From Ostreococcus lucimarinus (taxonomy: Eukaryota), in the NCBI GenBank assembly GCA_000092065.1, contig CP000593.1: a DNA stretch of 64,000 bases; one strand, 5' to 3'. Both the position numbers and the translations under genes were made by a program. Below, in pieces: positions 3,692 through 27,300 of this stretch. Position 1 is the first letter of the stretch; every line of letters begins with the position of its first letter. The notes under the pieces were generated by a model. The model worked only from the letters and a program-made list of their open reading frames with translations, ran no database searches and was not told the DNA's origin.

Positions 3692-5581
3692 TTACGGGAG
3701 CGTGTACTTGCCAGGCTTGTCGAAGACGTACTCGGCCGTTTCGTTTTTCTTCACGACGAATCCCGCGAGCGCGTCGACTTCGGGCGCACCTTTGCCGGTC
3801 GGCTTCCACTGCCAACCCTTGTTCGTCACTTTCAAACCATCGACGATGACTTCCGCGCCCTCGCACGCCTTGATGACGAGCGCACCATCCACTTCGACGT
3901 TTTTCAAATTGACGCCAGAGCCTTCGACGACGAGCGCGCTCTTCGCGCCCAACTTGACGGCGCCGACTTTCGACTTGAGTTCATCAAAAGATGTGGCGAC
4001 ATCCGGACCGAGCACAACACGTGGACCCATGGGAAGCTTCATACCGTTGAATTCAGCGTCGACGGCGGCGGCGGGGACGTCGGCACCGGCCAAACGCAAC
4101 AAGTTTGCGCACGATTCGTAAAACTCAAACTCGCCGCTCGTCGCCGTGTGCGTCGGGCCGTTAGATTTGAACTTGGCCAAACCGTCCGCCGGAGAGTTCT
4201 TCACCGGGCTGTAGCCAATCCAGTTCGCAAAGACGGTGAAACCAACCTTAGCCTTCGATCCGAGGCTCTTGGGATAGTCTTGCATCATGCACTCCAATCG
4301 CGTCGGCGATTTGAAAGCCGTCTTTGTCTCATCCTTGTACTTGGGATTGACGAATTCTTCGATCGCGCCGCCAGTCTTCTTGAGTTGTTTTGCGTACTCT
4401 GGAAGACTCACGATGAGCTGATTGATGTTACCCGGGAATGGGGAGAAGCCCGTGGCATCGTTGACGTCGCCTTCGGGATTCGTAGTGGCTCGCAAAAGCG
4501 GATCGAGCTGGTTGTATTCGACGTTGATGGTCATCTTGCGTCCATCCTCGTGAGTTAGCAACGAAATCGCACCGACCGCTTCCTTGGCTTTTCGCGGAAC
4601 GCACAAAGAATTGAACTCAAGATTCATCGTCTTCGACACCCCGAGCGCACCAGGGATGACGCGGAACACGAGCGAGTTCGTGTCTTGAAAGAAGACGACC
4701 CACTTCTTGCCTTGGCTCATCCACTTTGATAACAACCCGCTCGTGTGCAGGAGAGAGTGCACGTCACCGTGGCCGTGCGGCTTGAGCGCGAGCTTGTAAG
4801 GATCGTCGTCTTTCACCGCCAAACGTGCATCGTTATCCATCAAGCACGGCACCTTTTCTTGCTTCATGAGCGTGATTTGATCGCGAGACGCGCCAAAGTA
4901 ATCGTTGCGTTCGAGCAAATCGAGCGTCAGCGCGTGCGTGTCCTCCGACGTCATGATCGCCAACGGAATCTTCGTGGACGATTTCGCCTTCGCGCCGCCA
5001 CCGCCGAAGCACCCGCACCCACCCGCGTTCGTCGCACCCTCCGCACCCTCCGCGCGTTTCTCCATCGCCAAGATATTCTTCACGTACAACTCCAAATAGC
5101 ACGCGTTCGTCGCCCGCTCCACCGGCAGCGCGACCTTGATCCCCGAGTACCCCAATCGCTCTCCCAACCCCCCCGCGACGAGCACGAAGCACGTCTCCGC
5201 CGTCTCCCGCATCCCAATCTTCTCCAGAATCTCGTGCGCCGCCGATCCGTACTCCACCGTCTTCCCCGTGGGCACGCTCGGCGTCCATCCCTCGAACGGA
5301 TTCTTCCCCTCCTTCGACGCCCTCAGCAGCTCGCGCGCGTTCGACACGTACTTCGCCACCCCCCCCGGGTACCCCCGATCCGCCCGTCGCACTTCCTCGA
5401 CGAACGCGCGCTTCCTCTCGTCGTCCACGCCCGGCGCCGGCCAATCCGCGATCAGATGCGCTTGTCCCAGCGCGATCGTTTCGCGCAGCGTCCGCGCGTC
5501 GTCCGTCGTCAGCGCGCCGCGCGCGACGTGCGCGTCGACGACGGCCGTCGCGCTCGCGCGCGCGTCGTCCATCGCGGCCAT
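3692..5581 (-). CDS. USP: UDP-sugar pyrophosphorylase
   Basis: FVLVAGGLGERLGYSGIKVALP nucleotide-binding motif and length about 630 aa match plant USP. ATG verified (complement of 5579-5581). The ORF-track start at 5719 is upstream in the same frame and less likely. Confidence 0.8.
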   Translation of the reverse strand: MAAMDDARASATAVVDAHVARGALTTDDARTLRETIALGQAHLIADWPAPGVDDERKRAFVEEVRRADRGYPGGVAKYVSNARELLRASKEGKNPFEGWTPSVPTGKTVEYGSAAHEILEKIGMRETAETCFVLVAGGLGERLGYSGIKVALPVERATNACYLELYVKNILAMEKRAEGAEGATNAGGCGCFGGGGAKAKSSTKIPLAIMTSEDTHALTLDLLERNDYFGASRDQITLMKQEKVPCLMDNDARLAVKDDDPYKLALKPHGHGDVHSLLHTSGLLSKWMSQGKKWVVFFQDTNSLVFRVIPGALGVSKTMNLEFNSLCVPRKAKEAVGAISLLTHEDGRKMTINVEYNQLDPLLRATTNPEGDVNDATGFSPFPGNINQLIVSLPEYAKQLKKTGGAIEEFVNPKYKDETKTAFKSPTRLECMMQDYPKSLGSKAKVGFTVFANWIGYSPVKNSPADGLAKFKSNGPTHTATSGEFEFYESCANLLRLAGADVPAAAVDAEFNGMKLPMGPRVVLGPDVATSFDELKSKVGAVKLGAKSALVVEGSGVNLKNVEVDGALVIKACEGAEVIVDGLKVTNKGWQWKPTGKGAPEVDALAGFVVKKNETAEYVFDKPGKYTLP

Positions 5582-5634
5582 CGCGCGCGTCGTCGTCCGT
5601 CGTCGCGCGGCGTCGGCGCGCGCGCGCGCGTTCA

Positions 5635-5691
5635 TTTCCGACACGTATGGGTAAACAGTCACAAGATTTCCGACACGTATGGGTAAACAGT
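5635..5691 (+). promoter_or_regulatory. Tandem duplicated 25-mer TTTCCGACACGTATGGGTAAACAGT (2 copies, period 32) holding the recurring CGTATGGGTAAACAGTG element
   Basis: Identical 25-mers at 5635-5659 and 5667-5691 between the divergent USP (ATG 5581, minus) and primase (ATG 5944, plus) genes. The same 17-mer recurs at 34991-35007 and reverse-complemented at 45624-45640. Confidence 0.4.
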
Positions 5692-5943
5692 GCGAAGACA
5701 CACACGGGAGGATTTTCAAACGCCGCGACAGGTGGCGCGAAAAATTTAAAATTCCAGCGACGACCGCGCGACTGCGCGACGCGCGGCGCGACGCGACGCG
5801 ACGCGGGAGACGCGCGCGCGCGGCGAAGCTTTCGAGGCGTCGGACGCGCGAACGAACGCGAGAACAAACGCGAGACGACGCGAGAGACGACGCGGGAGAC
5901 GCGCCGACGCGGTGACGATCGACGCGGTGACGATCGACAAAGG

Positions 5944-7248
5944 ATGGCGACGGTCGAACCGGAGACGAAGCGATTGAAGACGGAGGATGGGGAGAAGGAA
6001 AACGTCGCGCTCAACACGGGGAACGTGGGGAAGGCGCGGGTGAAGAGCTTGATGTATAGGTATTATAAACAATTTTACCCGGCGGATCTGTTGTTCAAGT
6101 GGTTGGCGCACGGAAACGACGAACGACACGCGAGGGCGGAGAAGACGTACCCGAGCCGGCGGGAGTTTTGTTTCGTGCTGGATAAGGAACAAGAAGAGGG
6201 CGGGGGAGAGATTTTTGCGCGGTATCAGAGTTTCGTGGACGCGAAGGATTTTAAGACAAACGTGGAGCGGAAAAAGCCGGCGCGCATCGAATTCGGGCCG
6301 ATTTGTAACCGCAGACCGTCCGACAGGCACACGGTGGAGTTAAAACCGGAGGAGCGGGAGTTGGTTTTTGATATCGATATGACGGATTACGACGACGTGC
6401 GGACGTGCTGCAAGGAGGCTGGGATCTGTGGAAAGTGCTGGCCGTTGATGACGGTGGCGCTCAAGGTGCTCGACGTCGGCTTGCGCGAGGATTTCGGTTT
6501 CAAGCACTTGTTGTGGGTCTATTCCGGTCGTCGCGGTATTCACTGCTGGATCAGCGATGAGCGCGCGAGAAAGTTGAGCGACGAAGCTCGCTCTGCGGTT
6601 GCCGAGTATTTCGCCGTCGTCAAGGGCGAGGGTCAGGGGCGCCGCGTGTTGTCGTCGACGCCGATGCACCCTTCGGTGAAGCGCGCGTACGACGGCGTCT
6701 TGAAACAATATTGGATCGAGTCGTACTTGCCCACGCAGCGAATTCTCGAGGACAAAACCAAGCTCGAGCAACTCCTCAATCTGATTCCCGACGAAAACAT
6801 TAGAGAGGATCTCGCGTCGGAGTTTGCGACGAGTTCGCTCAACTCGGTCGACCGCTGGGGTGTCATCGAGCGCCGCGTGCAAGACTCTTTGAAGAAAAAT
6901 AATTACAAGCTTACCGGTGCGCTCGAAAAGATAATCCTCTGGCACATCTACCCTCGAGTCGATATCGAGGTGTCTAGACACATGAATCACTTGTTGAAGG
7001 GTCCGTTTTGCGTTCACCCAAAAACTGGGCGTGTGTGCGTGCCCATGGATCCCGCCACCGCGGATTCCTTCAATCCGGAACTCGTGCCCACCGTCGTCGA
7101 TCTGGATTCCGGTGCGCAAACCTTAGACGGGGCGATCAAAACTTTTAACGACACGTTCTGGAACGCGTGCGCGAGGGAAAACATCGAGCGGCTCACCGCA
7201 AAGACGCGTCAAGCCAAGGCGGAGCAACAGTCTGGGATGGAATTCTAA
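5944..7248 (+). CDS. PRI1: DNA primase small (catalytic) subunit
   Basis: LVFDIDMTDYDDVRTCC...GICGKCW primase small-subunit signature, about 435 aa. ATG verified at 5944 (MATVEPETKRLK). The ORF-track start at 5647 lies inside the promoter motif and is R/D-rich filler. Confidence 0.85.
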   Translation: MATVEPETKRLKTEDGEKENVALNTGNVGKARVKSLMYRYYKQFYPADLLFKWLAHGNDERHARAEKTYPSRREFCFVLDKEQEEGGGEIFARYQSFVDAKDFKTNVERKKPARIEFGPICNRRPSDRHTVELKPEERELVFDIDMTDYDDVRTCCKEAGICGKCWPLMTVALKVLDVGLREDFGFKHLLWVYSGRRGIHCWISDERARKLSDEARSAVAEYFAVVKGEGQGRRVLSSTPMHPSVKRAYDGVLKQYWIESYLPTQRILEDKTKLEQLLNLIPDENIREDLASEFATSSLNSVDRWGVIERRVQDSLKKNNYKLTGALEKIILWHIYPRVDIEVSRHMNHLLKGPFCVHPKTGRVCVPMDPATADSFNPELVPTVVDLDSGAQTLDGAIKTFNDTFWNACARENIERLTAKTRQAKAEQQSGMEF

Positions 7249-7308
7249 ATGATGAACTTGTGTAATTGAAAGAGAAAGATTTCGTTAAATTAATTGAATA
7301 GTACTTAA

Positions 7309-8445
7309 TTATGGCGCGTTTCTCGCGAGCGACCACTTATCGTCGTCGTCGTCGTCGTCTTGGCTCACAGGCGTCAATTCTATCGACATTAAGCGTTCGC
7401 TCGAACTCAACACCTCTTGCCACGTCGGCGGCTTGCTCTTGTCAAAGTACACGTTCTCGACCACGGTTGTGTCCCAACTCTCCCCCGTAGTGCTGTTCCC
7501 AAACTTTCGCACGCTACCATCGGGGGATAACACTTCTCCCCACGTCCGGCTGAACCGTTCGCCATCTTCACCGACGCGCCACGTCTCCCCGCTCTTGCGT
7601 CCGCTGCCAATCTTGCTTCGGCGCTCTTCCCATTTATCGCCCCATCGCATCCCCATGCCGTTCTCCGCCCACTTATCCGTCCACTTCAGCGTCGCGCCCT
7701 CGCCATCGTACTGCTCTCCCCACTTCTCCCACCACGCCTGTCGAACCTCTCGCCCGCTCTTTTCCACCCCTCGCTCGACGGCGCCGTTGGCGTAGTACCG
7801 CTCCCACCACTTCTCCTGCCACTCCTTACTCTGCGCGTCTCGCGCCCACTTATCGGCGCTCCTCTCGATGTGTTCGACGCCCGTAAAATCATCCCGGCAA
7901 TAGATCTCTCGCCACGTCTCCCACCACGTCTCACCCGTGTCGTTAAATCCGCTCTTCTCGAACCCGAGCTCCTTGTAACCGCTAAAATCGCACTTCGCCC
8001 ACCGCGTCTCGCTCGATCCGCTTCGCCCATCCGGGCAATCTCTCTTCGTCGTCCACCACCTCGACTGATACCCACCTTCTCCACGATCGAATCCTCGCTT
8101 TCGCGTCGTCTTCATTCCTCCCTTCTCCTCCACGGACGTCGACGTTTCCCGGTTTCCGCCTCGCGCGCCGTCCTCGCTCGCGCCCGCCGCGCCGTCGTCC
8201 TCGTCGTCCGCGTCCTCGAACGCCTCGTCCTCTTTCGCGATCCCCGTGTCGCGCTGCGGCGGTTTCGCGCGCGTTCGCACGTCTCCTCGCGGTGCGTCGC
8301 CGCCGCAGACGCGTCCGCGGCGCGCGCGCGCGTCGATCGCGCGCGTCGATCGCGCGCCGCGCGATCGCGTCGTCGTCGTCGTCGCGCGTTCACGGCGCGT
8401 CGCCGCGGCGCGCGGAGACGCGCGGCGGAGCGACGCGATCGTCAT
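7309..8445 (-). CDS. Tryptophan-rich repeat protein (about five ~30-aa units W(W)EKWxExY); family unknown
   Basis: Repeats WWETWREIY, WQEKWWERYY, WWEKWGEQY, WTDKWAENG, WGDKWEERR. Acidic stretch EDEAFEDADDEDDG upstream. The ORF-track start at 9168 overlaps the downstream helicase gene and is rejected. Candidate ATGs at 8445 and 8115, both verified; which is used is uncertain. Confidence 0.45.
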   Translation of the reverse strand: MTIASLRRASPRAAATRRERATTTTTRSRGARSTRAIDARARRGRVCGGDAPRGDVRTRAKPPQRDTGIAKEDEAFEDADDEDDGAAGASEDGARGGNRETSTSVEEKGGMKTTRKRGFDRGEGGYQSRWWTTKRDCPDGRSGSSETRWAKCDFSGYKELGFEKSGFNDTGETWWETWREIYCRDDFTGVEHIERSADKWARDAQSKEWQEKWWERYYANGAVERGVEKSGREVRQAWWEKWGEQYDGEGATLKWTDKWAENGMGMRWGDKWEERRSKIGSGRKSGETWRVGEDGERFSRTWGEVLSPDGSVRKFGNSTTGESWDTTVVENVYFDKSKPPTWQEVLSSSERLMSIELTPVSQDDDDDDDKWSLARNAP

Positions 8446-8639
8446 CTCGTCGCGCGACCGGGTCGCGCGATCGCGGCGCGCCGGGCTGTGCGGACGCGCG
8501 ATCGCGTCATCGTGTCGGTTGGGCGCGCGCGGGCGCCGGCGCGAGACGGATTCGCGGCGCGCCGACGAGGGGACGAAGCGACGAGACGAAGGCGCGGATG
8601 CGGACGAAATCGACGGAATGAGGGAGATGCGCGACAAAA

Positions 8640-11129
8640 CTACTTTCTGCGGTACTTGCTGGCGCTCTTGAACTTGCCGCGGGCGGTCTTGAAGGGCTTG
8701 GCGGGGGCGCCCGGGCTCGCGCCGCGAAATCCTCCGCGGAAATCGGCGCCGCGGCCGGAGGATTGGACGCGCGCGTCGTCGTCGTCGTGGACGTCGGCGC
8801 GCGCGGCGCGCTTGGCCTTGGCCTTGGGATCGCGCGCGTTTTTGACCATGCGGACGACTTTGGTGGCGACGCCGCCGGTCAAGCGGGCCTCGCGTTCGAT
8901 GGCTTTGACGGATTTGACGCCCTTGGTCACGCGAAAGCCGCCTCGAGGGGTGTCGTCGTCGCCGCGCTCCTTTTTGTATAGCGCCTGTTGCGCGAGTTTG
9001 CGTCGCGCGCGCTTGCTGTCGGGTAAACGATCGGGACCGGCCGCTTCCTGTCGGCGCTTGGCGCCCTTGCGGTGAGACTTTCGATCCATCAAGTCCATTT
9101 CGGCTGTTTCCATCGCCTTGAGCGCGTCTTTTTGCGCGTTGCGTTTGTCGCGTTCGCTCTGGAACCATGTCTTCGCCGGTCGCGATTTGATCTCAGCCGC
9201 GTGCTCGAGAATGTTCGAAGCCTTATTTGCCTCCATTTCGGCCTTTTGAAGCTGACGTTCGGTGCGCTCTTCGTAGTTGATTTGCACAATTTGCTCCTCC
9301 ATATCCTCGATTTTCTTGTGCCACTCGGCGACGATGTTCCCGGGCACGATTCGCGCTTTGAGGTTCGCCCCTCGTTTTGCTATGGTTTTGACTAGTTTAC
9401 GATCGGATTCTTCCATGAAGGTCAACGCCGTGCCTTTCTTCCCCGCGCGCGCTGTGCGCCCGACTCGGTGTAAATAGCTCGCCAAAGTCTTCGGCGCGTC
9501 GAACGAAATCACCGCGTCGACGGATGGAATATCCAAGCCTCTGGCGGCGACGTCTGTGGCGATCAAATGCGTGACTGTGCCCGTCCTAAATTCATCGAGC
9601 GCTGCTAAGCGCTGCGTCTGCGTCATGTCCCCGTGTAACTCACCCGCTTTGATGTCGCTTAAACCCATGATGATCTTCAAACGATGCGCCTCTTGCTTGG
9701 TTTGGGAAAATATAATGGTCGACTTGTCGTAAGAACGACTCACAATGGCCATCAAGAACGCCTCTTTCTGAGCACTTTGGTTAGGTTTGAGCTTTAACAC
9801 TTCCTCCACCAACCGCTTGGGCGTCGTGCCGAGCGTGTCCGCGGAAAGCCTCGCCGGATTCTTCATCGAAAGACTCGCCAGCGCCTCGACGCCGGCGGTG
9901 AGCGTGGCGCTGAATAATAACGTTTGGCGCTTCTTCGGGCATTGTCGAACAATTTCTTTGATCTCTTCCAAGAATCCCATCTCCAGCAAACGATCGGCTT
10001 CGTCTAAAATCAACGTCGCGAGATCTTCTAGCCCAAACGAGTGCGTGTTTCGCACGTGGTCGATGACGCGACCGGGCGTCGCCACGACAATTTCGGGTCG
10101 AGTGCGCAGCGCAGCTGCTTGCACGTTCGCCGACAATCCACCGACGACGAGCACGGCTCGAATTGTTGTAAACTGCGCGAGACTTTCCGTCATTTGATGC
10201 ACCTGAACCGCAAGTTCGCGCGTCGGCACCAAGACCAACACGTGCGTCGCCGCCGCCGGCCTCGGTCCTCGATGTAACATCCGCTCCAACTGCGGCAGCA
10301 TAAACGCCGCCGTCTTCCCGCTCCCCGTTACCGCTCGCCCGCAGACGTCGCGACCAGTCATCGCGATCGGAATCACCGCCGCCTGAATCGGTGTCGGTTT
10401 CTTATACCCGAGCGCCTCGCACGCTCGCGTCAGCGGCCGCGACAGGTGCAACTCGTCGAACGCCTTCGCGTCGAACGTCGTGTCCCCTTTCGCCCCCTTG
10501 ACGACCGCGCGCTCTTGAAACCCATCCTCCGACTCGGAATCACTCTCCGACGACGTCGCCGTCGCCGTGGGCGTCTTTGCTTTCTCGTCCTTCGCCGCGT
10601 CTTCCTCGCGCGCCTCGCGCTCTTCCTCGCCTTCGCTCGTCCCATCCTCCTCTTCCTCCTCGCGCTCGCGCTCGCGCTCGCGCTCGCTCTCGCTCTCGTC
10701 GTCGTCATCATCACCGCTCTCGCTCTCCTCACCACTCTCGCTGTCTCCACTGACGCTCGCGTCGTCATCCGTCTCGCCGTCGTCCTCGCCCGGCAGCGGC
10801 GCGTCCTCCGAGTCGCTCCCGTACTCGTCCTCCGACCCACCCGCGCTCGCGCTCCCTCGCCTCCCGCGCCCTCTCGCCCGCGCGATCTTCTCGTCCACGC
10901 TCGTCATCTTGTTCGCTCGCAGCTCGCGCGCGCGCGCCTCGCGCGCGTCGCCAAAGTTCCACGCCTCGGTCGCCGCGCGTCCGCCGCCGCCGCCGCCGCG
11001 TCCCTTCGTCGCTCGTCCCGCGCGCGTCCCGCGCCCGTCGTCGTCGTCCGACGCGTCGAACGTGAACGAGGGGTTAAACTCGACGTCGCTCCCGTCCGCG
11101 TCCGCGTCGGCGGTCGACGCGCGCGGCAT
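8640..11129 (-). CDS. DEAD-box ATP-dependent RNA helicase, DDX27/Drs1-like, acidic N-terminus and basic C-terminal tail
   Basis: Q-motif plus VTGSGKTAAFMLP (motif I), DEADRLLEMGF (motif II), SAT, HRVGRTARAGKKG (motif VI). ATG verified at 11129; alternative ATG at 11192. Confidence 0.85.
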   Translation of the reverse strand: MPRASTADADADGSDVEFNPSFTFDASDDDDGRGTRAGRATKGRGGGGGGRAATEAWNFGDAREARARELRANKMTSVDEKIARARGRGRRGSASAGGSEDEYGSDSEDAPLPGEDDGETDDDASVSGDSESGEESESGDDDDDESESEREREREREEEEEDGTSEGEEEREAREEDAAKDEKAKTPTATATSSESDSESEDGFQERAVVKGAKGDTTFDAKAFDELHLSRPLTRACEALGYKKPTPIQAAVIPIAMTGRDVCGRAVTGSGKTAAFMLPQLERMLHRGPRPAAATHVLVLVPTRELAVQVHQMTESLAQFTTIRAVLVVGGLSANVQAAALRTRPEIVVATPGRVIDHVRNTHSFGLEDLATLILDEADRLLEMGFLEEIKEIVRQCPKKRQTLLFSATLTAGVEALASLSMKNPARLSADTLGTTPKRLVEEVLKLKPNQSAQKEAFLMAIVSRSYDKSTIIFSQTKQEAHRLKIIMGLSDIKAGELHGDMTQTQRLAALDEFRTGTVTHLIATDVAARGLDIPSVDAVISFDAPKTLASYLHRVGRTARAGKKGTALTFMEESDRKLVKTIAKRGANLKARIVPGNIVAEWHKKIEDMEEQIVQINYEERTERQLQKAEMEANKASNILEHAAEIKSRPAKTWFQSERDKRNAQKDALKAMETAEMDLMDRKSHRKGAKRRQEAAGPDRLPDSKRARRKLAQQALYKKERGDDDTPRGGFRVTKGVKSVKAIEREARLTGGVATKVVRMVKNARDPKAKAKRAARADVHDDDDARVQSSGRGADFRGGFRGASPGAPAKPFKTARGKFKSASKYRRK

Positions 11130-11209
11130 TTCGAGTTTTCGTCGCGTCGCCAAGTGTCGCGAGGGGGCGGCGCTCGCGGCGCGTCGCGACACTTCGCGAC
11201 GCGGCCGCG

Positions 11210-15235: not shown

Positions 15236-16147
15236 ATGCGTCTCGCGTCGAGCGCTTCGTTCGCTTCGCGTCCGAGCGTTCGCGCGCGCTCGACGCGCAA
15301 CGCGAACGTTCGACGCGCAACGCGCCACAGCGCGCGCGCGAACGCCGCCGGCCGCTGGGCGCCGCCGTCGCGGTCGACGACGCAAACGTCGACGGCGTCG
15401 TCGCGTGCGGCGCCGAAACCGCCGCTCGTCGCCGTCGCCGGGCGCGACGTCACGTCGTTCGCATTTGCCGCCGCCGGCGCGGCGCTGCTGACGACGGTGG
15501 GCGCGGTGGCGCCGCTCGTGCGGTCGCTGCGGGAGCTGAGCGCGAGCGTCGACGCGGCGGCGACGGCGGCGGAAAGCGCGGCGAATGAAGTGGAGGCGTT
15601 AGCGAAAAACACTGCGAAGGAGCTACCGGAGACGCTGCAAGCGATGGAAGAGAGCGCGCGAGAGGTGGAGGCGTTGGCGGCGGAAACGCGGGAGGCGTTG
15701 TCGAAATTGGATGCGACGGAGTACGTCGAGTCGCTCGTAAACGATTTCACGGCAAAGATGAAAGATCCGACGAAGGATTTTCGGGATTTGGGAGACGATG
15801 CGACTGAGTACGTCAGGCGTTTGTCGCTTGAGCTCGGGCTAGTCATGCAGAGCGTGGGCATTTATTTAGACGATGGTGCGTTTGACGAAGACGCGAAGAA
15901 TTTGAGCGCGGCGGAAAAGGCGCGGCGGAAGAACGCCCTCACAGAGGCAATCTCAGCGGCGAAGGAAACGACGGAGAGCGCGGCAAAACTGTCGACGCAA
16001 CTGCAAGGCGCGGCCAACGGTGAATCTAAAGGACGAGATCTAGCAGAAATCGTGGGAAAGATTGCGCTCGCGAGCAAGCAGGTATCGACGGCGATGACAA
16101 GAGTCGTCGAGAGCACGTCGGAGAGTTTCCGTTCGACGGATGAATGA
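15236..16147 (+). CDS. Hypothetical Ala/Glu/Lys-rich coiled-coil protein with organellar-presequence-like N-terminus
   Basis: ORF-track start 15197 is GTG; the first ATG is at 15236 (MRLASSASFASRP...). K/E-rich helical C-terminal half looks like coding rather than a GC artefact. Confidence 0.4.
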   Translation: MRLASSASFASRPSVRARSTRNANVRRATRHSARANAAGRWAPPSRSTTQTSTASSRAAPKPPLVAVAGRDVTSFAFAAAGAALLTTVGAVAPLVRSLRELSASVDAAATAAESAANEVEALAKNTAKELPETLQAMEESAREVEALAAETREALSKLDATEYVESLVNDFTAKMKDPTKDFRDLGDDATEYVRRLSLELGLVMQSVGIYLDDGAFDEDAKNLSAAEKARRKNALTEAISAAKETTESAAKLSTQLQGAANGESKGRDLAEIVGKIALASKQVSTAMTRVVESTSESFRSTDE

Positions 16148-16190
16148 CGGATTCAGATTTTATGATTTTTTAACGCGCAAATATTATGTA

Positions 16191-18899
16191 CTATAAAATC
16201 CTACGCGGTTTCGGTGGACTCCAGAACACCTTTTCAGGCGTTCGCAAGGGCGTGTGGAATAGTTCCACCTCAGGATCGTCCACGCGAACTAAAGTCTGAT
16301 ACTCGTCTGTATCGTTGCCTTCGATGAGCCGTGTGAACTGCTCGCCGAACGTTTCCCAATACCAATCGAGGAACAAGTTATGAGTCACGCGCTTGCTAAC
16401 AACCATTCGTTGCATCTCTTCGCGCTGCCGAATCGCGTTCCGCCAACGTGTGAAGTAATGATTACGCGTGGCGAACTGGTGCGACGCGCGCATCTTGACG
16501 AGAGCGACCATTTGCGCCCGCCACATGCCGCGCCAAATCGCGAAACTTCGGCGCAGTCGAGACTGTCGTTGGCGGTTAAAGATGGCTAACGCGCTCACAG
16601 CGATCAACTTAGAGTGCTCTTGAGTGGCGAACTTCCATTGGTTCCACGAACTCAACAACACACGTTGACGCCATCTCGTTAGCGTCGCCGCTACGCTTCG
16701 TCTCTGCGTTCTCAACGTATGCGTGCGGTATCTCCAGCCTTGGAACGCTCTCAACAGTTCGTAACGACGTAGTTTGTTCATAAACTTTGAGACAGTGTGT
16801 TTACGGAACGCAGACTTGATCGTTTGTGATCGCCAAGCGTCGAAATTCGCTCGAATATATTTGAACCGCAACGACGCCATCGCGTGCACGACGCCTCTCT
16901 GATGTTGTTCCTCGCGCTGCCGTCGCGCACTCAGCATTTTCCAATTATGGAAGACGATTCGCGTTGTGTTATTTTTCATGCGTTCCCGCGTGACGGCATA
17001 CATCTTTTCGCGATGCACCCGTACGAATCGAGCAGTCGTTCTCCATGCGAAAAAGTGAAGCTTCGTCAGCGTCTTGCGTGAGTCCTTGTTCCAGCACAGT
17101 AACACGCCGTTGTACGTCTTCTTTGCATGACGTGAATCGTCCACGACTTCTTTCCACTTCAAAAACGCTGCGCATGCGGTGCGGTTATCCCAGCGCGCGA
17201 ACGTCCGCATCAGACGTTGAGTGAAACTTTTTCTCTCTTCCGCTCGGTTCTTCCAACACTCAAACGCGTCAAACATCAGACGCTCACGCATCTTGTGCAC
17301 CGCGAGACGCTGAATCTTTGCGACATGCTTCCCTCGTTTCGCGTACAAATACCACGATACGAACACTTTTTGCTTCAGCTCTCTGGATTTATCAGTCAAC
17401 GCACGTCTATGCGCCCTCGCGGCTATTCGACGCGTTTGATTTGATTCCGAAGCACACGACTTCCATCTATCAAAGAATTGTCGAGCAAGACTCTCGCGTC
17501 GCCTCGCGCTCAACAGCGCGTCCCTCTCGCGCTTCAACTTTCGAGTGTTCGCGTAATTCTTCCAAGCATCAAACGCCGCGCCGAGACCTCGTCTATCAGC
17601 CCGTAATAAGAACCGAACGACGCCGACGCGCTTTCGACGTTCCTTATCCGCAAACGCTCTCCACCTTTTAAAAGTTTCATCCCTGAACGCGCGTGCAGAC
17701 GTCCGCGTCATGCGCTCTATCGCTTTCACCTGAACCGCTTGAACGCGCTTTCGCATCTTTTGCTGCATCGTCTTGCGCATTGTCTTCAAAGCTTCATTGT
17801 TGATAGACTCAAACTCTAACTGTACCGTTTGTACCGAGTTCATCCAGCTCTTCTCCACTATTTTCAGCTCTTCTCGCAAACCTTCCAGCTCCCGCTCCAC
17901 ACCGCGACGGATTTCAATTTCGTCTTTGAATATGCGCGTCCACTTTTCTACTATGGCGGCGGAAAGCCAACTTGGTGCAGACTCGGCCGGTTTCGGTGGC
18001 TCGATCAACACGGGTTGCTGTTCGACTCGCTTCTGTTTCGATTTTGGCTTCGACGGCGACGCGTTTGCTGCGGCGCTCGGACTCGGTGGCGCCGCCAAAG
18101 GTTTTAGATTGAGCACCGACGATTCGGATTCCGTGTCACTGCCGTAGTACGACGTCCCATATTCCACGTACGCCAAATCATCGTCGTAGAGACTCATATC
18201 ATCCAACGCATACTTTGGCAAAAACTCCTTCGGCACCTCCACCACCGCGGCGTTGATCGTCACGTGCTCGAAGCGTCTATTCCTAAACAGCATCGCCCGT
18301 CCGTACGTCGCACGCTCGTGATCGACGCTCACCAGTTCCCATTGTTCGCACACTCCAAAGTTGTAGTTGTAAAAGCACAGCTCGCTCGCAGCCTTGCGTC
18401 TCGCTTGCAAAAGCTTCCCCCCCGCCGCGTGCGAACGAAACCCGTAGAATTCGCCAAATCTCAGCACCACCAACTGCGTCGACGCGTCTCTCGCCGTGAG
18501 CATCAACGAATCGATGTCCGCGCCACCCCCACTCGCCGACGTCGACGTTGAAACTCCGTCTCGCCGAAGCGTCGCGCACGAAAACTCCAGCGCGCGCTTC
18601 CCCTCCGTCGCCGCCGGCGCGTCGTTCGCGCGCGTCGACCGACCGCCGCCGTCCCGCGCCGCGTACATCCCTCGTCCTTCCCTCGCCCCGAGCGCGTACA
18701 TCGCCACGCAGCTTCCCGCGCGCAGCGGCGCGTTCGAGTCCTCTCGCGAAGCGTCGTCATCGTCCGCGGAAACGACGGCGGCGCCGACGACGTCCCAAAA
18801 ACTTCGCTCCGCGGTGGTGGCTCCAGAGCTCAACAATCCAATCTCTTTCGCGGCGACGTCGCGCGTCGTTCGCGCGACGTCTCTCGCGCGCGACGGCAT
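16191..18899 (-). CDS. Large protein with Sfi1-like (centrin-binding) Trp-containing repeats in the C-terminal half (tentative)
   Basis: Recurring ~33-aa units with F/L...W(K/R): FFAWRTT, VFHNWKML, FDAWRSQ, FQGWRYRT, LTRWRQRV, FAIWRGMWRAQ, YFTRWRNAI. The ORF-track start 19337 overlaps the upstream gene. First plausible ATG verified at 18899. Start uncertain. Confidence 0.45.
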   Translation of the reverse strand: MPSRARDVARTTRDVAAKEIGLLSSGATTAERSFWDVVGAAVVSADDDDASREDSNAPLRAGSCVAMYALGAREGRGMYAARDGGGRSTRANDAPAATEGKRALEFSCATLRRDGVSTSTSASGGGADIDSLMLTARDASTQLVVLRFGEFYGFRSHAAGGKLLQARRKAASELCFYNYNFGVCEQWELVSVDHERATYGRAMLFRNRRFEHVTINAAVVEVPKEFLPKYALDDMSLYDDDLAYVEYGTSYYGSDTESESSVLNLKPLAAPPSPSAAANASPSKPKSKQKRVEQQPVLIEPPKPAESAPSWLSAAIVEKWTRIFKDEIEIRRGVERELEGLREELKIVEKSWMNSVQTVQLEFESINNEALKTMRKTMQQKMRKRVQAVQVKAIERMTRTSARAFRDETFKRWRAFADKERRKRVGVVRFLLRADRRGLGAAFDAWKNYANTRKLKRERDALLSARRRESLARQFFDRWKSCASESNQTRRIAARAHRRALTDKSRELKQKVFVSWYLYAKRGKHVAKIQRLAVHKMRERLMFDAFECWKNRAEERKSFTQRLMRTFARWDNRTACAAFLKWKEVVDDSRHAKKTYNGVLLCWNKDSRKTLTKLHFFAWRTTARFVRVHREKMYAVTRERMKNNTTRIVFHNWKMLSARRQREEQHQRGVVHAMASLRFKYIRANFDAWRSQTIKSAFRKHTVSKFMNKLRRYELLRAFQGWRYRTHTLRTQRRSVAATLTRWRQRVLLSSWNQWKFATQEHSKLIAVSALAIFNRQRQSRLRRSFAIWRGMWRAQMVALVKMRASHQFATRNHYFTRWRNAIRQREEMQRMVVSKRVTHNLFLDWYWETFGEQFTRLIEGNDTDEYQTLVRVDDPEVELFHTPLRTPEKVFWSPPKPRRIL

Positions 18900-23106: not shown

Positions 23107-24333
23107 ATGGCGTCGACGCGCGCGATCGCGGGCGCGGGATCGCGAATCGACGCGAATCGACGCGACGCTCGCGAGCGCGCCGCGCGCGTCGCTCGACCGG
23201 CGACGCGACGCGCGCGCGACGACGACGCGGCGGAATCGGAATCGGTGTCGGAACCGGGGTCGCGCGCGCACGCCGGCCCGCACGACGTCGTCGTGAAGCG
23301 CACGACGCCGCGACCGACGCGCGCGGTGGCGCGCACGGGCGCGGTGGCGACGAAGAGCGCGAAGGCGCACCGAAGGCAGCGCGCGTGGGCGCCGGACGCG
23401 CTGGAGTTTCACGGGCTGGTGCGGGCGCGGCGGGAAGATTTGGGGACGCGCGCGAACGAGGACGAGAGGGAAAGATTCCCGTACGGCGATGGATTCGCGT
23501 TCGCGAGGGCGACGTGCGAGACGGAGACGATGGTGGCGCTCGCGACGGCGATGGTCGGGGAAGAGCGACGCATGCGGCTGGAAAACGTTTTGGAGCATAG
23601 AAGTTTTTCGTTGCTGCCGATTCTAGAGGGCGTCTACGACGTCGGCAATATCTTGGCGGTGTGTCGGACGACGGAGGCGCTGGGGATCGGGTGCGCGTCG
23701 ATCGTGAGCTCGAAGGGGCTGTCGTTCAAGGCGAGCGGGAGGACGTCGGGAGGGGCGCTGAAGTGGCAACACGTGGAGCAGTTTGAGACGTCGGAACGCG
23801 CGCTCAGAGTCGCGAAGGCGAAAGGATACCGCGTTCTTACGACTGAGTTTGACGGCGCGCAGCCGCTGTCGCATTACGATTGGACCGTGCCCACGGCGGT
23901 GGTGTTTGGGAACGAGCGCGAGGGGGTTTCGGACGAGGCGCGAGCGCTGCGGGATGGCGCCGTGTACATTCCGATGTTTGGCTTCACCGAGTCTTTGAAC
24001 ATTTCCGTCGCCGCCGCGCTCGTGATGTCGCACGCCGTGACGGACCGGATCAACCGCCGAGGGTTTCACGGCGATTTGACTGAGGAAGAAAAACGTATTT
24101 TGCGCGGCGTGTACATGTCTAGGTTGATACCGAACTACGCAAAGCAAGGATATCTCGAAGAACTCGTCGAGCGTCATAGAAAGGGTCAAAAGCTCGCGGT
24201 GACGGACGACATCGATGTGAGCGAGGAAACACTCGACGAAATTGAATTGTTGACCGAACTGGACGCGGCCAAGTTGGTCGGTAGGCGCAAGCCGAAACGA
24301 GACCTGGGATGGGACGAGCACCTGGACGGTTGA
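23107..24333 (+). CDS. SpoU/TrmH-family RNA 2'-O-methyltransferase
   Basis: VVFGNEREGVS and ESLNISVAAALVM SPOUT motifs. ATG verified at 23107. TGTAA 3'-end signal shortly after the stop. Confidence 0.75.
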   Translation: MASTRAIAGAGSRIDANRRDARERAARVARPATRRARDDDAAESESVSEPGSRAHAGPHDVVVKRTTPRPTRAVARTGAVATKSAKAHRRQRAWAPDALEFHGLVRARREDLGTRANEDERERFPYGDGFAFARATCETETMVALATAMVGEERRMRLENVLEHRSFSLLPILEGVYDVGNILAVCRTTEALGIGCASIVSSKGLSFKASGRTSGGALKWQHVEQFETSERALRVAKAKGYRVLTTEFDGAQPLSHYDWTVPTAVVFGNEREGVSDEARALRDGAVYIPMFGFTESLNISVAAALVMSHAVTDRINRRGFHGDLTEEEKRILRGVYMSRLIPNYAKQGYLEELVERHRKGQKLAVTDDIDVSEETLDEIELLTELDAAKLVGRRKPKRDLGWDEHLDG

Positions 24334-24381
24334 ATTATTGAAGTTGTTGTTTATTGTGTCAAATGTTGTAAATCTAGAGAA

Positions 24382-27300
24382 CTACTTTCGTCTTCTGCTG
24401 CGACTAGAGGTACTTTTATTAGCAGGCGGAGTCGGCTCCACCGTTTTTCGTTTCTTCTTGTTGTCCGCGACTTCCGGTTCTGGTTTAGCGGGCGGCTTCG
24501 CTTCTTCTTCCGTCTTTGGCGGCTCCGGAGCTTCTTCAGCCGGCGGAGGCGCGGCTCGCTCCGGCGCTTTGTCCGTGTCCTTCGGCGCTGGACGGAACGG
24601 AACGTACGGAATACCTTGCGCCGCGCAGCACTCTGGGCAGGCAAACTTGACGTTTTCGGCGTTTTCGTCTTCCTCGCCCGGCGCCGGCGACTGCATGCCG
24701 ATGCACTCGTAATGAAACCAACCATCGCATCGATCGCAGCAAATCATCGGCCTGAGAGCGTCGTACGCGCTTCGGCAAACGCAATACAGTTCGCATCGCT
24801 CTCCCAACTCCTCGAGCTCCTCCTTCAAGTATAAAGGCAAAGATCGACCCTCTTGAAGCAGCAACTGCGCCGCCTCGATAGGAATCGTTTTGTCTTGCAC
24901 GACGGCGGCGGCGCGTTCGAGCCAGATTTGTCCAGCAACCTCCAACGCGTGCGCGCGATCGGCCAAAGGATCAATGCCGGCACCAGGGCAAAGACCAGCA
25001 GCCATGGCAGATTCCTTGAGCTCGTGAAGCTTGATCAACCTCGGGAACGGCGCACCAGTCATGAGCCGCGTGGCTTGTTCTCTCCACGCCGGACCGCACA
25101 CTTCGCGCATCAACGCGAGCGTCTCCTCAACAGGTTCCAGCTCCATCGCCAGAGCACCCTTCATGCCCGCGTACACTTGCAGCGCTGGATCGACATTATC
25201 TTTTCGAGGAATGTCATACGTGTAATCCATCTCTTGCTTGGGCATTCCAGACGCGTCGCCGACAAGCGATGGCATGGCCGGTTGCAACATGAACTGCTGC
25301 GGAACCATCATCGGTTCGTTCGTCTTCAACTGAGCAGACATATCGCTTGGACTACCATGACCCGTGGATGTTGAAGGTTCTTTGCCGGTGTCTTGCGCCG
25401 TCGGCGGCGGCATCATGCCAGACATTCCAGATAGTTGCAGAGTCGCTTCCATGAGCCAGTTGCTAGCGCCAACATTTGCCAGCTCTTCCTCGTGCTCGTT
25501 TGTCATCTTTAGATGCTGTTGCTGCATCATCAAGACGTGGAGGATGTGGGGCCTAGACCGAACTGGAGCCATGTGAATTTGAGCTTGGCACATCGCGAGT
25601 TGCATGGCGAGCTGTTGAAGTTGCCCGAGCTGCTTTGTGACGACATCTGAAATCTCCTGCGAACACGGCGAAATGTTCAACGCGTGCGTGCGCTGCGTTG
25701 CGGCGAACGTGACAGCTTGACCCATCAGCATGACTTGCTGTAATGGCGTGAGAGAAGCTGGAGGATTGGGGTTCTCTGCAGTCGCCGCGAGCGACGCTTC
25801 GGCGATTCGTCGTGTGCGTTCCTCAGATTCTCTCATCGCTGCTTCTTGGGCAATCTTCGAAGCTTGACTGATGGCGTTGTCGTGTGCTTCCTTCATACTC
25901 TTTCTATGCAAAGTCTTTCGTACTTCCAATCGCCACGCGTCGTGAGTATTGATGACTTGATTCAACACGGCTTCTTCTGGCACTTCTCCAGGAAATCGCT
26001 GCGCTTCACCGAGGAGTTCTCGCAAAAGCATGACGTTTGGGCGATTGGTGCGATGCACCGAGCGATACGTATCCAACGAGAGTGCGCTCGCCTTGCCACT
26101 CTTCGCGATGCATGGCGGACAGATGTAATTGTGCATCGTCTTTGCCATAGTAGGCGTCACATTGATACATTTTAAGTGATACCAGTCACCGCAATCATCA
26201 CATCCAACCATTTGAATTCCTCCAGCTTGTCGACAAAGGCAGAACTAACCCTCCTCCGTCTCCGGCGGTTCGCCAGTCCCGGTGATGTCTTCCACACCAG
26301 CTTTGATGGAATCAAGAACATTGCTCAACATTTCGATAAGCGTTTTTTCTTGTTTGACTTCACCCTGATCGTTTGCCCAGAGCAACGCGTTGAGCCTCTC
26401 CGTCCACGCCGTGGCGGCGTTGCACGCATTTGTGAGCGCTTGTCTCTCTGAGCACTTGAAGGTCAAATCTTCCACCTCCGCTAGAAGATCGTATAATTCG
26501 TCAATCGAAGGGCGAGATCGACCTTCAGCGACACTGTTCAAGCACTTACGAACGGTGTCGACCCACTGTGCGTGATCCGCCAACGACGCCTCGAGGTCTT
26601 CTACCTTCGAGACGTCAGCGGGAAGTGCCTTGCCTTCGGCGATGAGGGCGTCTATTTCCTCCGGTGATGCACTCGGAGCCAATCGACCGTCTTCAAGGAG
26701 AGGAGGATCGAGCAAACGATCCGCTTTCTTGCGCCATTCGTCCACAATCGTGTACCGTTTCATGATTTCAGCGACAAGATCCTCTTTCAAGTCTTGAAGC
26801 ACGTCGATTTCTTCCCTGAGCTCGTCCAAAACGGTGTCCTCGACGAGCTTCGCCTTGGGTGCAATGATCTTAGCGACGCGTTCTTCCCACTTGAGCGACT
26901 TTAAACGAATGCGAACTGTCTCCATGGCTGGTAATTCTAATCCAAAGTCTTCGTGCGAAAGTTCAAGCTCGGTCAACGTCACCTCGGCGCCGTCTTCTCG
27001 CCAGCGCTCGATGGCGTCCTTCGCGTCCACGTCCCACTCTTCTGCGGCTTCGACGCGTTCTTCCAAAGCTTCAACTTCCTTGACAAACAATTTCAAGTTC
27101 GAAGACTCTTTCATGAGCTCTTGCGCCTCGGAAAGCGGCGGAATCGGATTTGACACACCGCGACGAGTGAGCTGCTTTCCCTTCAAACAAGGTTGTGCAC
27201 GATCCAACCAAGACTTGGCTACATTGACCGCTTCTGAAAGCACGTCGAATCCATTCAGAAAGATTGGAATCGAGCTTCCTTCGCGGATGAGCGACGCGGC

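What the first reader, a model, noticed from the sequence alone, without database searches (positions are those of the whole stretch)
7309..8445. Tryptophan-rich tandem-repeat protein with W(W)EKWxExY units and no family I can name
About five ~30-residue repeats each start with a Trp cluster (GETWWETWREIY, EWQEKWWERYY, AWWEKWGEQY, KWTDKWAENG, RWGDKWEERR) within a Gly/Glu/Arg-rich matrix. They are preceded by an acidic block and a basic, presequence-like N-terminus. The codon usage (frequent AAG/GAG/TGG) is inconsistent with a GC-artefact ORF. It is flanked tightly by real genes on the same strand.
Basis: seen in the sequence. Interest (0 to 1): 0.5.

Follow-up and report, generated by a model that had tools for sequence, protein, structure and literature searches.

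The report
Ostreococcus EARLY STARVATION 1 starch-binding protein
The tryptophan-rich repeat protein is a real gene, but it is the picoalgal orthologue of EARLY STARVATION 1, a known chloroplast protein whose flat beta-sheet binds starch, so the finding is ordinary.

Summary
Window 7309-8445 (- strand) encodes a 378-aa protein with 22 Trp, 21 of them in residues 115-345 (9.1%). All five quoted W-cluster motifs are present.

The interpretation "no family I can name" does not hold. The protein belongs to the ESV1/LESV family (Pfam PF28232, "LESV", missing from the local Pfam copy):
- Land-plant proteins named "EARLY STARVATION 1, chloroplastic" match at E~1e-62 to 1e-65, 47% identity.
- Nearly every Trp of the domain is invariant across 38 green-lineage homologues.
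- An AlphaFold2 model (pLDDT >90 over ~101-330) gives 16 antiparallel beta-strands plus a C-terminal helix, the fold published for Arabidopsis ESV1/LESV.
- A neighbour-joining tree puts it in the ESV1 clade (99/100), apart from the LESV clade. That clade holds a second Ostreococcus paralogue.
- Domain dN/dS against other Ostreococcus lineages is about 0.05-0.07, and gene order is conserved.

Most likely function (inferred): a plastid-targeted, non-catalytic protein that docks amylopectin double helices on stripes of Trp and acidic residues and stabilises the starch granule.

It differs from streptophyte ESV1 in lacking the Pro-rich tail; it carries a short poly-Asp tail instead. Interest is low.

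The parts
7309..8445 (-). Complete single-exon CDS (378 aa plus stop) of the ESV1 orthologue.
   Evidence: Translation. 377/378 and 376/378 identity to metagenome and NCBI-sourced proteins of the same length. Named ESV1 proteins match at E~1e-62 to 1e-65. PF28232 'LESV' is recorded on the 376/378-identical protein.
8275..8445 (-). Putative chloroplast transit peptide, aa 1 to about 57. It is Arg/Ala/Thr/Ser-rich and not conserved.
   Evidence: Composition of the first 60 aa: 17 R, 12 A, 9 T, 4 acidic residues. pLDDT is below 50. The region is variable in length and unalignable among homologues. Targeting itself is inferred, not tested.
8224..8262 (-). Conserved motif PPQRDTGIAKEDE (aa 62-74), upstream of the beta-sheet and shared with streptophyte ESV1.
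   Evidence: Consensus PPxRDTGIAxExD in alignment A1; G68, I69 and E72 are at least 90% conserved. The BLASTP alignment to a named ESV1 begins here, at aa 57, whereas the alignments to the LESV proteins begin only at aa 115 or 129.
8170..8235 (-). Acidic linker block, aa ~71-92 (KEDEAFEDADDEDDGAAGASED).
   Evidence: Read directly from the sequence. Model confidence is low to moderate here.
7459..8145 (-). Trp-rich glucan-binding domain, aa 101-329: 16 antiparallel beta-strands.
   Evidence: AF2 model with pLDDT >90; 16 strands listed. Invariant W149, 174, 175, 178, 209, 213, 214, 238, 239, 242, 255, 259, 268, 272, 289, 302 and 324, with flanking D/E/K/G, across 38 homologues. Domain dN/dS ~0.05-0.07.
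7798..7983 (-). Internal repeat copy A, aa 155-216: a 4-strand unit (EKSG strand, WWExW strand, DKWA strand, WxEKWWER strand).
   Evidence: Self-alignment score 106 against a shuffle mean of 45.4 (sd 8.6), z = 7.1.
7621..7788 (-). Internal repeat copy B, aa 220-275: the same 4-strand unit.
   Evidence: Same self-alignment.
7387..7422 (-). Conserved C-terminal helix, aa 342-353 (WQEVLSSSERLM).
   Evidence: Helices at 342-348 and 350-353 in the model. W342 is invariant; S349, L352 and I355 are at least 90% conserved. A conserved C-terminal helix on one face of the sheet is described for ESV1 and LESV (bioRxiv 10.1101/2023.06.09.544376).
7339..7359 (-). Poly-Asp run (D363-D369) in a short acidic C-terminal tail. 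It stands where streptophyte ESV1 has its Pro-rich tail.
   Evidence: Tail comparison: the window-clade sequences have tails of 4-22 aa (one chlorophyte-clade exception, P0088), mostly acidic. Most streptophyte tails are 29-75 aa with 17-47% Pro.
8640..11192 (-). Upstream neighbour: DEAD-box RNA helicase. Context only; not functionally linked.
   Evidence: Pfam DEAD and Helicase_C. The same neighbour is found in four Ostreococcus-like lineages.
5647..7248 (+). Downstream neighbour, convergent: DNA primase small subunit. Context only.
   Evidence: Pfam DNA_primase_S, E = 1.9e-46. Synteny is conserved.

Best explanation
The gene encodes the Ostreococcus (Mamiellophyceae) orthologue of EARLY STARVATION 1 (ESV1), a member of the ESV1/LESV family (Pfam PF28232).

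Proposed mechanism:
1. The Arg/Ala/Thr-rich N-terminus (about 55-60 aa) acts as a chloroplast transit peptide. This step is inferred.
2. The mature protein is a short acidic linker followed by one large, twisted, 16-stranded antiparallel beta-sheet (aa ~101-329). A conserved C-terminal helix (aa 342-353) follows the sheet. This step is shown by prediction.
3. Each ~15-residue strand carries a W/WW-x-(E/D)-K-W type motif.
4. By analogy with the published Arabidopsis models, the Trp/Tyr/Phe and Asp/Glu side chains line up in stripes across the strands. The stripes are ~14 A apart and ~70 A long, which matches the packing of amylopectin double helices.
5. Without any catalytic activity, the sheet docks neighbouring double helices at the surface or in the matrix of the starch granule. 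It thereby stabilises the semi-crystalline state and slows premature degradation through the night. A separate LESV-type paralogue in the same genus would promote the initial phase transition.

Steps 4 and 5 are inferred from Arabidopsis, rice and yeast work. They were not tested for this protein.
For: **Sequence homology**
- 488 homologues were found. Land-plant proteins named 'EARLY STARVATION 1, chloroplastic' match at E = 3e-65 to 1e-60.
- BLASTP to one named ESV1 gives 47% identity over aa 57-356, 243 bits.
- PF28232 'LESV' is recorded on a 376/378-identical protein and on the orthologues.
- 58 columns are invariant across 38 sequences from prasinophytes to angiosperms, including 18 Trp.

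**Predicted fold**
- AF2 gives pLDDT >90 for ~101-330, exactly 16 strands and a C-terminal helix.
- This matches the published description: an extended planar sheet of 16 twisted antiparallel strands, aromatic and acidic stripes ~14 A apart and 70 A long, and a conserved C-terminal helix (PMC10219597).

**ESV1 rather than LESV**
- The ESV1/LESV split has 99/100 bootstrap support in a neighbour-joining tree, with the window protein inside the ESV1 side.
- Scores are 243 bits to ESV1, 144 bits to Hevea LESV, and 126 bits to the LESV-clade paralogue of O. tauri.
- The N-terminal region is short (99 aa before the domain) and carries the PPxRDTGIA motif shared with ESV1.

**Real, selected gene**
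- Domain dN/dS is ~0.05-0.07 against three other Ostreococcus lineages.
- Microsynteny is conserved.

**Published function of the family**
- The proteins are starch-bound. LESV promotes amylopectin phase transition and ESV1 stabilises it (PMC10219597).
- ESV1 function is conserved from liverwort to rice, and homologues are present in starch-making green algae (PMC8343138).
Against: - No experiment or expression data for this gene was available here.
- Plastid targeting rests on composition only; no predictor could be run.
- The Pro-rich C-terminal region noted for Arabidopsis ESV1 is absent, replaced by a short poly-Asp tail. Functions that depend on the tail may differ.
- The model coordinates could not be read, so the stripe geometry was not measured for this protein.
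- The afdb50 library was unavailable, so there was no direct structural superposition on AtESV1.
- The tree is neighbour-joining on one domain, not maximum likelihood.
Confidence: 0.88

Rival explanations
1. It is functionally the LESV-type member, a nucleator of amylopectin crystallisation, rather than the ESV1-type stabiliser. Alternatively it is an undifferentiated ancestral protein that does both jobs.
For: ESV1 and LESV share the same glucan-binding sheet. Pfam names the shared domain 'LESV'. The window protein lacks the streptophyte ESV1 Pro-rich tail, so it is not a full-length architectural match to Arabidopsis ESV1.
Against: It lies on the ESV1 side of the ESV1/LESV split, which has 99/100 support. 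It scores 243 bits to ESV1 against 144 bits to LESV. It has no long N-terminal region; LESV has ~304 aa with conserved helices, while this protein has 99 aa. Ostreococcus and Bathycoccus carry a separate LESV-clade paralogue of 564-657 aa, so the division of labour probably predates the chlorophyte/streptophyte split.
Confidence: 0.08
2. It is a Trp-rich repeat protein of a new, unnamed family with a non-starch role. Possible roles would be a mitochondrial protein or a nucleic-acid or cell-surface binder.
For: The local Pfam-A copy gives no hit. PDB sequence and fold searches give no significant hit. The closest named algal proteins are 'hypothetical' or 'unnamed product'. The basic N-terminus could in principle be a mitochondrial presequence.
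Against: Strong homology to named ESV1 proteins and a PF28232 assignment. The predicted fold is identical to the published one. Every domain Trp conserved with land plants is retained. The missing Pfam hit reflects the age of the local library.
Confidence: 0.02
3. It is a spurious ORF in GC-rich DNA, or a pseudogene.
For: GC-rich DNA gives long stop-free frames; the mechanical ORF here runs 241 codons upstream of the real start.
Against: Domain dN/dS is ~0.05-0.07 with saturated dS. Conservation extends to angiosperms. GC3 exceeds GC1 and GC2. The fold prediction is confident. Length and position are intact in four lineages.
Confidence: 0.01

Closest known systems
EARLY STARVATION 1 (ESV1; Arabidopsis At1g42430 and its streptophyte orthologues)
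   Same: - Same clade in the tree.
- 47% identity over 300 aa, including the pre-domain PPxRDTGIA motif.
- Short N-terminal region and the same 16-strand Trp/acidic beta-sheet plus C-terminal helix.
- The sources name the land-plant proteins as chloroplastic.
   Different: - No Pro-rich C-terminal tail. Streptophyte tails are mostly 29-75 aa with 17-47% Pro and the motif ERPPGVYPxLDFG. Here the tail is 22 aa with a D7 run.
- The region before the domain is shorter: 99 aa against 121-253 aa in the full-length streptophyte sequences.
- The host is a wall-less picoalga which, from memory, makes a single starch granule per plastid. The tissue-level roles described for plants, such as statoliths and endosperm packing, do not apply.
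LIKE EARLY STARVATION 1 (LESV; Arabidopsis At3g55760; Pfam PF28232 'LESV')
   Same: Homologous C-terminal Trp-rich beta-sheet domain: 37% identity and 144 bits to Hevea LESV. Both are non-catalytic starch-glucan binders according to the literature.
   Different: - LESV has a ~304-aa N-terminal region with conserved helices that fold back on the sheet. This protein has none.
- It falls outside the LESV clade (99/100).
- Ostreococcus has its own LESV-clade gene elsewhere: O. tauri XP_003082922.2, 564 aa.
Classical starch-binding carbohydrate-binding modules (for example CBM20, CBM45, CBM48, CBM53)
   Same: From general knowledge, these are non-catalytic and bind alpha-glucan through aromatic (Trp/Tyr) platforms.
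   Different: - CBMs are compact beta-sandwiches of ~100 aa that bind single glucan chains at one or two sites.
- This protein is a single open sheet of ~230 aa, proposed to bind several aligned double helices.
- No CBM Pfam hit was found, and no PDB fold match had E <= 0.001.

Membership tests
ESV1/LESV family (Pfam PF28232) | Significant sequence match to the family domain. | tested here: met
   PF28232 is precomputed on all 120 listed homologues and on the 376/378-identical P0122. Named ESV1 proteins match at E = 3e-65 to 1e-60. The model is missing from the local Pfam copy, so hmmscan could not reproduce the hit.
ESV1/LESV family (Pfam PF28232) | C-terminal region of ~240-250 aa rich in Trp and other aromatic residues and in Asp/Glu, arranged in conserved repeated motifs. 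| tested here: met
   aa 115-345 holds 21 W (9.1%), 36 aromatic and 44 acidic residues. 18 Trp are invariant across 38 homologues.
ESV1/LESV family (Pfam PF28232) | [quoted passage not shown] | tested here: met
   The AF2 model has 16 strands between aa 101 and 329, a helix at 342-353, and pLDDT >90. This compares one prediction with another; no solved structure exists. Whether the helix packs on the sheet could not be checked, because the coordinates were not readable.
ESV1/LESV family (Pfam PF28232) | Aromatic and acidic side chains aligned in stripes ~14 A apart and ~70 A long. | not testable with these tools
   The model coordinates are not exposed to the scripting tool (one search lists the files in /data). 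The feature is inferred from conservation of the motif residues.
ESV1/LESV family (Pfam PF28232) | Chloroplast transit peptide and plastid/starch-granule localisation. | tested here: inconclusive
   The N-terminus is Arg/Ala/Thr/Ser-rich, nearly free of acidic residues, disordered and unconserved. No targeting predictor or localisation data were available.
ESV1/LESV family (Pfam PF28232) | Binds amylopectin or starch granules without catalytic activity. | not testable with these tools
   This is a biochemical property. It is shown for the Arabidopsis proteins (PMC10219597; bioRxiv 10.1101/2023.06.09.544376).
ESV1 subfamily | Phylogenetic placement with ESV1 rather than LESV. | tested here: met
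   The ESV1/LESV bipartition has 99/100 support in a neighbour-joining tree. The chlorophyte ESV1-like clade containing the window protein has 94/100. Scores are 243 bits to ESV1 against 144 bits to LESV.
ESV1 subfamily | Short N-terminal region (~130 aa including the transit peptide) with no LESV-type helices. | tested here: met
   99 aa precede the domain. The only conserved element there is PPxRDTGIAxExD, which is shared with ESV1.
ESV1 subfamily | Pro-rich C-terminal region, annotated as 'ESV1 only' for Arabidopsis in PMC10219597 Fig. 1. | tested here: not met
   The tail here is 22 aa with 2 Pro and a D7 run. Every window-clade sequence has a short tail; one chlorophyte-clade sequence (P0088) has a long Pro-rich one. 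Most streptophyte tails are Pro-rich. I treat this as a lineage-specific accessory of streptophyte ESV1, not a family-defining feature, but it is a real architectural difference.
LESV subfamily | Long N-terminal region (~300 aa) with conserved helices upstream of the Trp-rich domain. | tested here: not met
   The window protein has 99 aa before the domain. In most full-length LESV-clade proteins the domain starts at residue ~230-950.

The most novel reading that the evidence does not exclude
The prasinophyte ESV1 clade may be a minimal ancestral form of the starch-ordering sheet. It has no Pro-rich tail, only a short acidic or poly-Asp tail, and about 320 mature residues. In an alga that makes and partitions a single starch granule per plastid, this form might control granule size, or fission at cell division, rather than only night-time stability. 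It would also be a compact target for the first experimental structure of this fold, since none is in the PDB.
Probability: 0.1. Interest if true: 0.4.

Novelty: already known. Interest (0 to 1): 0.15.

Why it matters
The practical value is annotation. The Ostreococcus proteins are labelled 'hypothetical' or 'unnamed product', and they can be named ESV1. Their paralogue, labelled 'HAD-like domain', can be named LESV-like. Many land-plant orthologues also carry misleading names such as 'inactive purple acid phosphatase-like'.

Biologically, the result confirms that the ESV1/LESV pair was already duplicated before chlorophytes and streptophytes split. It also shows that the pair is retained in one of the smallest free-living eukaryotes, which fits a core role in making semi-crystalline starch.

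The tail-less prasinophyte form could serve as a compact construct for structure determination. None of this is surprising to a starch specialist.

Tried and rejected
- **Local Pfam-A scan of the protein:** only a sub-threshold DUF1180 hit (E = 0.67). PF28232 is not in the local copy.
- **PDB sequence searches:** single sequence and profile found no relatives.
- **Foldseek of the model against PDB:** no hit with E <= 0.001. The matches were generic long beta-meanders such as BamA/TamA barrels, Wzi and the ApoB100 belt (TMq at most 0.39). I rejected these as non-homologous.
- **afdb50 fold search:** would have allowed superposition on AtESV1 and AtLESV, but the library was unavailable.
- **Exact-sequence look-up of the window protein:** not on record. 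Near-identical members were used instead.
- **Feike et al. 2016 (Plant Cell 28:1472):** the original ESV1 paper with the ESV1/LESV tree is not held under DOI, PMID or PMC id. I could not verify whether Ostreococcus was in that tree.
- **Literature searches:** ESV1 plus Ostreococcus, and the O. tauri accessions, returned nothing relevant.
- **First tree attempt:** Biopython bootstrapping timed out. I redid it with a numpy distance matrix.
- **Second copy in the window:** a six-frame HMM scan found only this one.
- **uORF as a regulatory feature:** rejected as not conserved between species.
- **'HAD-like domain' label on the O. tauri paralogue:** not supported by the local Pfam scan.

Full report
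**1. The observation**

The - strand of window 7309-8445 is an open frame of 378 codons plus a stop. The protein has 22 Trp (5.8%), and 21 of them lie in aa 115-345 (9.1%). That stretch also holds 36 aromatic, 44 acidic and 41 basic residues and 29 Gly. Among the 65 stop-to-stop segments of at least 300 aa in the window, this one has the highest Trp fraction; the median is 0.65%.

The first 60 residues hold 17 Arg, 12 Ala, 9 Thr and only four acidic residues. An acidic block follows at aa ~71-92. GC3 (0.77) exceeds GC1 and GC2 (0.59, 0.57), as expected for a real gene in a GC-rich genome.

The mechanical ORF continues upstream to 9168. That extension overlaps the 3' end of the DEAD-box helicase gene (stop at 8640) and is an artefact of a stop-poor GC-rich frame. 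Orthologues have N-termini of similar length, which supports the ATG at 8445.

**2. Two corrections to the description**

First, the repeat unit. The AlphaFold2 model shows 16 beta-strands with a mean start-to-start spacing of 14.8 residues. The elementary repeat is therefore one strand plus turn, about 15 aa, and not ~30 aa. Trp-Trp spacings are enriched at lags 4, 13 and 30 (z = 2.7-3.1). The strongest internal similarity is a duplicated four-strand block, aa 155-216 against aa 220-275 (score 106 against a shuffle mean of 45, z = 7.1).

Second, the neighbours. Only the upstream gene (DEAD-box helicase, 8640-11192) is on the same strand. The downstream gene (DNA primase small subunit, 5647-7248) is on the + strand and convergent.

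**3. What it is**

The local Pfam copy and the PDB sequence search gave nothing. The large protein search returned 488 homologues. Every listed homologue carries a precomputed Pfam PF28232 assignment. The land-plant members are named 'protein EARLY STARVATION 1, chloroplastic' at E = 3e-65 to 1e-60. A context look-up shows that PF28232 is called 'LESV' and is assigned to a protein 376/378 identical to the window protein.

BLASTP to a named ESV1 (Malania) gives 47% identity over aa 57-356, 243 bits. In a 38-sequence alignment running from prasinophytes through Mesostigma, Klebsormidium, liverworts and Ginkgo to angiosperms, 58 columns are invariant. These include W149, 174, 175, 178, 209, 213, 214, 238, 239, 242, 255, 259, 268, 272, 289, 302, 324 and 342.

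The literature describes the family as follows (PMC10219597; bioRxiv 10.1101/2023.06.09.544376):
- ESV1 and LESV are starch-bound, non-catalytic chloroplast proteins.
- They share a C-terminal Trp-rich domain of ~240-250 aa.
- The domain folds into an extended sheet of 16 twisted antiparallel strands.
- Aromatic and acidic residues form stripes ~14 A apart and ~70 A long, matching amylopectin double helices.
- A conserved C-terminal helix lies on one face of the sheet.

The AF2 model built here from alignment A1 has pLDDT >90 for ~aa 101-330, exactly 16 strands, and helices at 342-348 and 350-353. The N-terminal 64 residues are disordered. No solved structure resembles it by sequence profile or by Foldseek at E <= 0.001. 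This agrees with the family being known only from AlphaFold and SAXS.

**4. ESV1 or LESV?**

I extracted the domain from 66 representatives and built a neighbour-joining tree with 100 bootstraps. The split between an ESV1-like group and a LESV-like group has 99/100 support.
- The ESV1-like group contains the named streptophyte ESV1 proteins plus a chlorophyte clade that holds the window protein.
- The LESV-like group contains Hevea 'LIKE EARLY STARVATION' and proteins from Chara, Volvox, Apatococcus and Picocystis.
- The streptophyte ESV1 clade has 95/100 support and the chlorophyte ESV1-like clade 94/100.

The LESV-like group also contains Mamiellophyceae proteins: O. tauri XP_003082922.2 (564 aa), an Ostreococcus 'lucimarinus' transcript-derived protein, and Bathycoccus prasinos CAL6441868.1 (657 aa).

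The window protein is more similar to land-plant ESV1 (243 bits) than to Hevea LESV (144 bits) or to the LESV-clade paralogue of its own genus (126 bits). It has only 99 residues before the domain. Its single conserved pre-domain element, PPxRDTGIAxExD, is shared with ESV1. It is therefore the ESV1 orthologue, and the ESV1/LESV duplication predates the chlorophyte/streptophyte split.

**5. Organism and selection**

The closest named proteins are from Ostreococcus tauri ('unnamed product' XP_003082685.2 / CEG00156.1 and 'hypothetical' OUS46311.1; 74% identity by BLASTP local alignment). Proteins 99.5-99.7% identical occur in many marine metagenomes. The window is therefore from an Ostreococcus species other than O. 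tauri.

The gene order is DEAD helicase, ESV1, convergent primase, UDPGP-family gene, calpain. It is conserved in four Ostreococcus-like lineages. Against the three divergent lineages, the domain has dN ~0.08 while dS is 1.2-1.6 or saturated. That gives dN/dS of about 0.05-0.07, which indicates strong purifying selection.

**6. How it most likely works**

Shown here by computation:
- family membership;
- placement in the ESV1 clade;
- the 16-strand sheet and the helix that follows it;
- conservation of the Trp and acidic residues;
- purifying selection.

Inferred from the family literature and from composition:
- The N-terminus directs import into the chloroplast.
- The mature protein binds aligned amylopectin double helices along its aromatic and acidic stripes.
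- It stabilises the semi-crystalline granule matrix so that starch is not degraded too fast at night.
- The LESV paralogue promotes the initial phase transition (PMC10219597).
- ESV1 function is conserved from liverwort to rice, and homologues were already noted in starch-making green algae (PMC8343138).

**7. Differences from the textbook ESV1**

Most streptophyte ESV1 proteins end in a tail of 29-75 aa with 17-47% Pro and the motif ERPPGVYPxLDFG. The window protein and all other members of its prasinophyte clade end 4-22 residues after the conserved helix, usually with acidic residues. Here the tail contains a run of seven Asp. I treat the Pro-rich tail as a streptophyte accessory, not a family-defining feature, but it is a tested architectural difference.

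**8. Verdict**

The protein belongs to a known, Pfam-defined and experimentally studied family, and it is the expected orthologue in a starch-making green alga. Novelty: already known. The interest lies mainly in annotation clean-up and in a compact tail-less variant that may suit structural work.

Noticed in passing
window 8442-8510 (- strand): A 22-codon upstream ORF (MTRSRVRTARRAAIARPGRATR) has a TGA stop that overlaps the main ATG of the ESV1 gene (ATGA). It is present in the same-species contig L001 but absent upstream of the orthologues in L005, L006 and L007. It is probably not a conserved regulatory element.
   Followed up: yes
not in the window; proteins P0371/P0372 (O. tauri XP_003082922.2, OUS45893.1), P0378 (Bathycoccus CAL6441868.1): Mamiellophyceae carry a second, LESV-clade paralogue of 564-657 aa. 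The O. tauri copy is named 'HAD-like domain' by its source, but the local Pfam scan finds no HAD domain. The name looks like a mis-annotation of a LESV-like protein.
   Followed up: partly
window 3692-11192; loci L001, L005, L006, L007: The gene order DEAD-box helicase, ESV1, convergent DNA primase small subunit, UDPGP-family pyrophosphorylase, calpain-like peptidase is conserved across four Ostreococcus-like lineages. Nothing suggests the neighbours are functionally linked to ESV1.
   Followed up: partly
one search hit list (land-plant homologues): Many ESV1 orthologues in NCBI and UniRef are named 'Inactive purple acid phosphatase-like protein'. Isolated ones are named 'Cortactin-binding protein 2' or 'RNA-directed DNA methylation 3-like'. 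These look like propagated mis-annotations.
   Followed up: no
window 7309-9168 (- strand): The mechanical ORF extends 241 codons upstream of the real start, through the intergenic region and into the 3' end of the helicase gene in another frame. Several other long Arg-rich ORFs overlap real genes on both strands. These are typical stop-poor frames of ~62% GC DNA.
   Followed up: yes
window 16001-18000 and 24001-30000: GC content dips to 0.52-0.55, against 0.60-0.70 over most of the rest of the window. Not examined.
   Followed up: no
P0130 and other 322-323 aa members of the 98% cluster: Many metagenome gene calls for this protein start at the GTG codon for Val56 (MRTRAKPPQRDTG...). This is a prokaryotic-style start choice that removes the putative transit peptide. 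It is a gene-calling artefact, not an isoform.
   Followed up: partly
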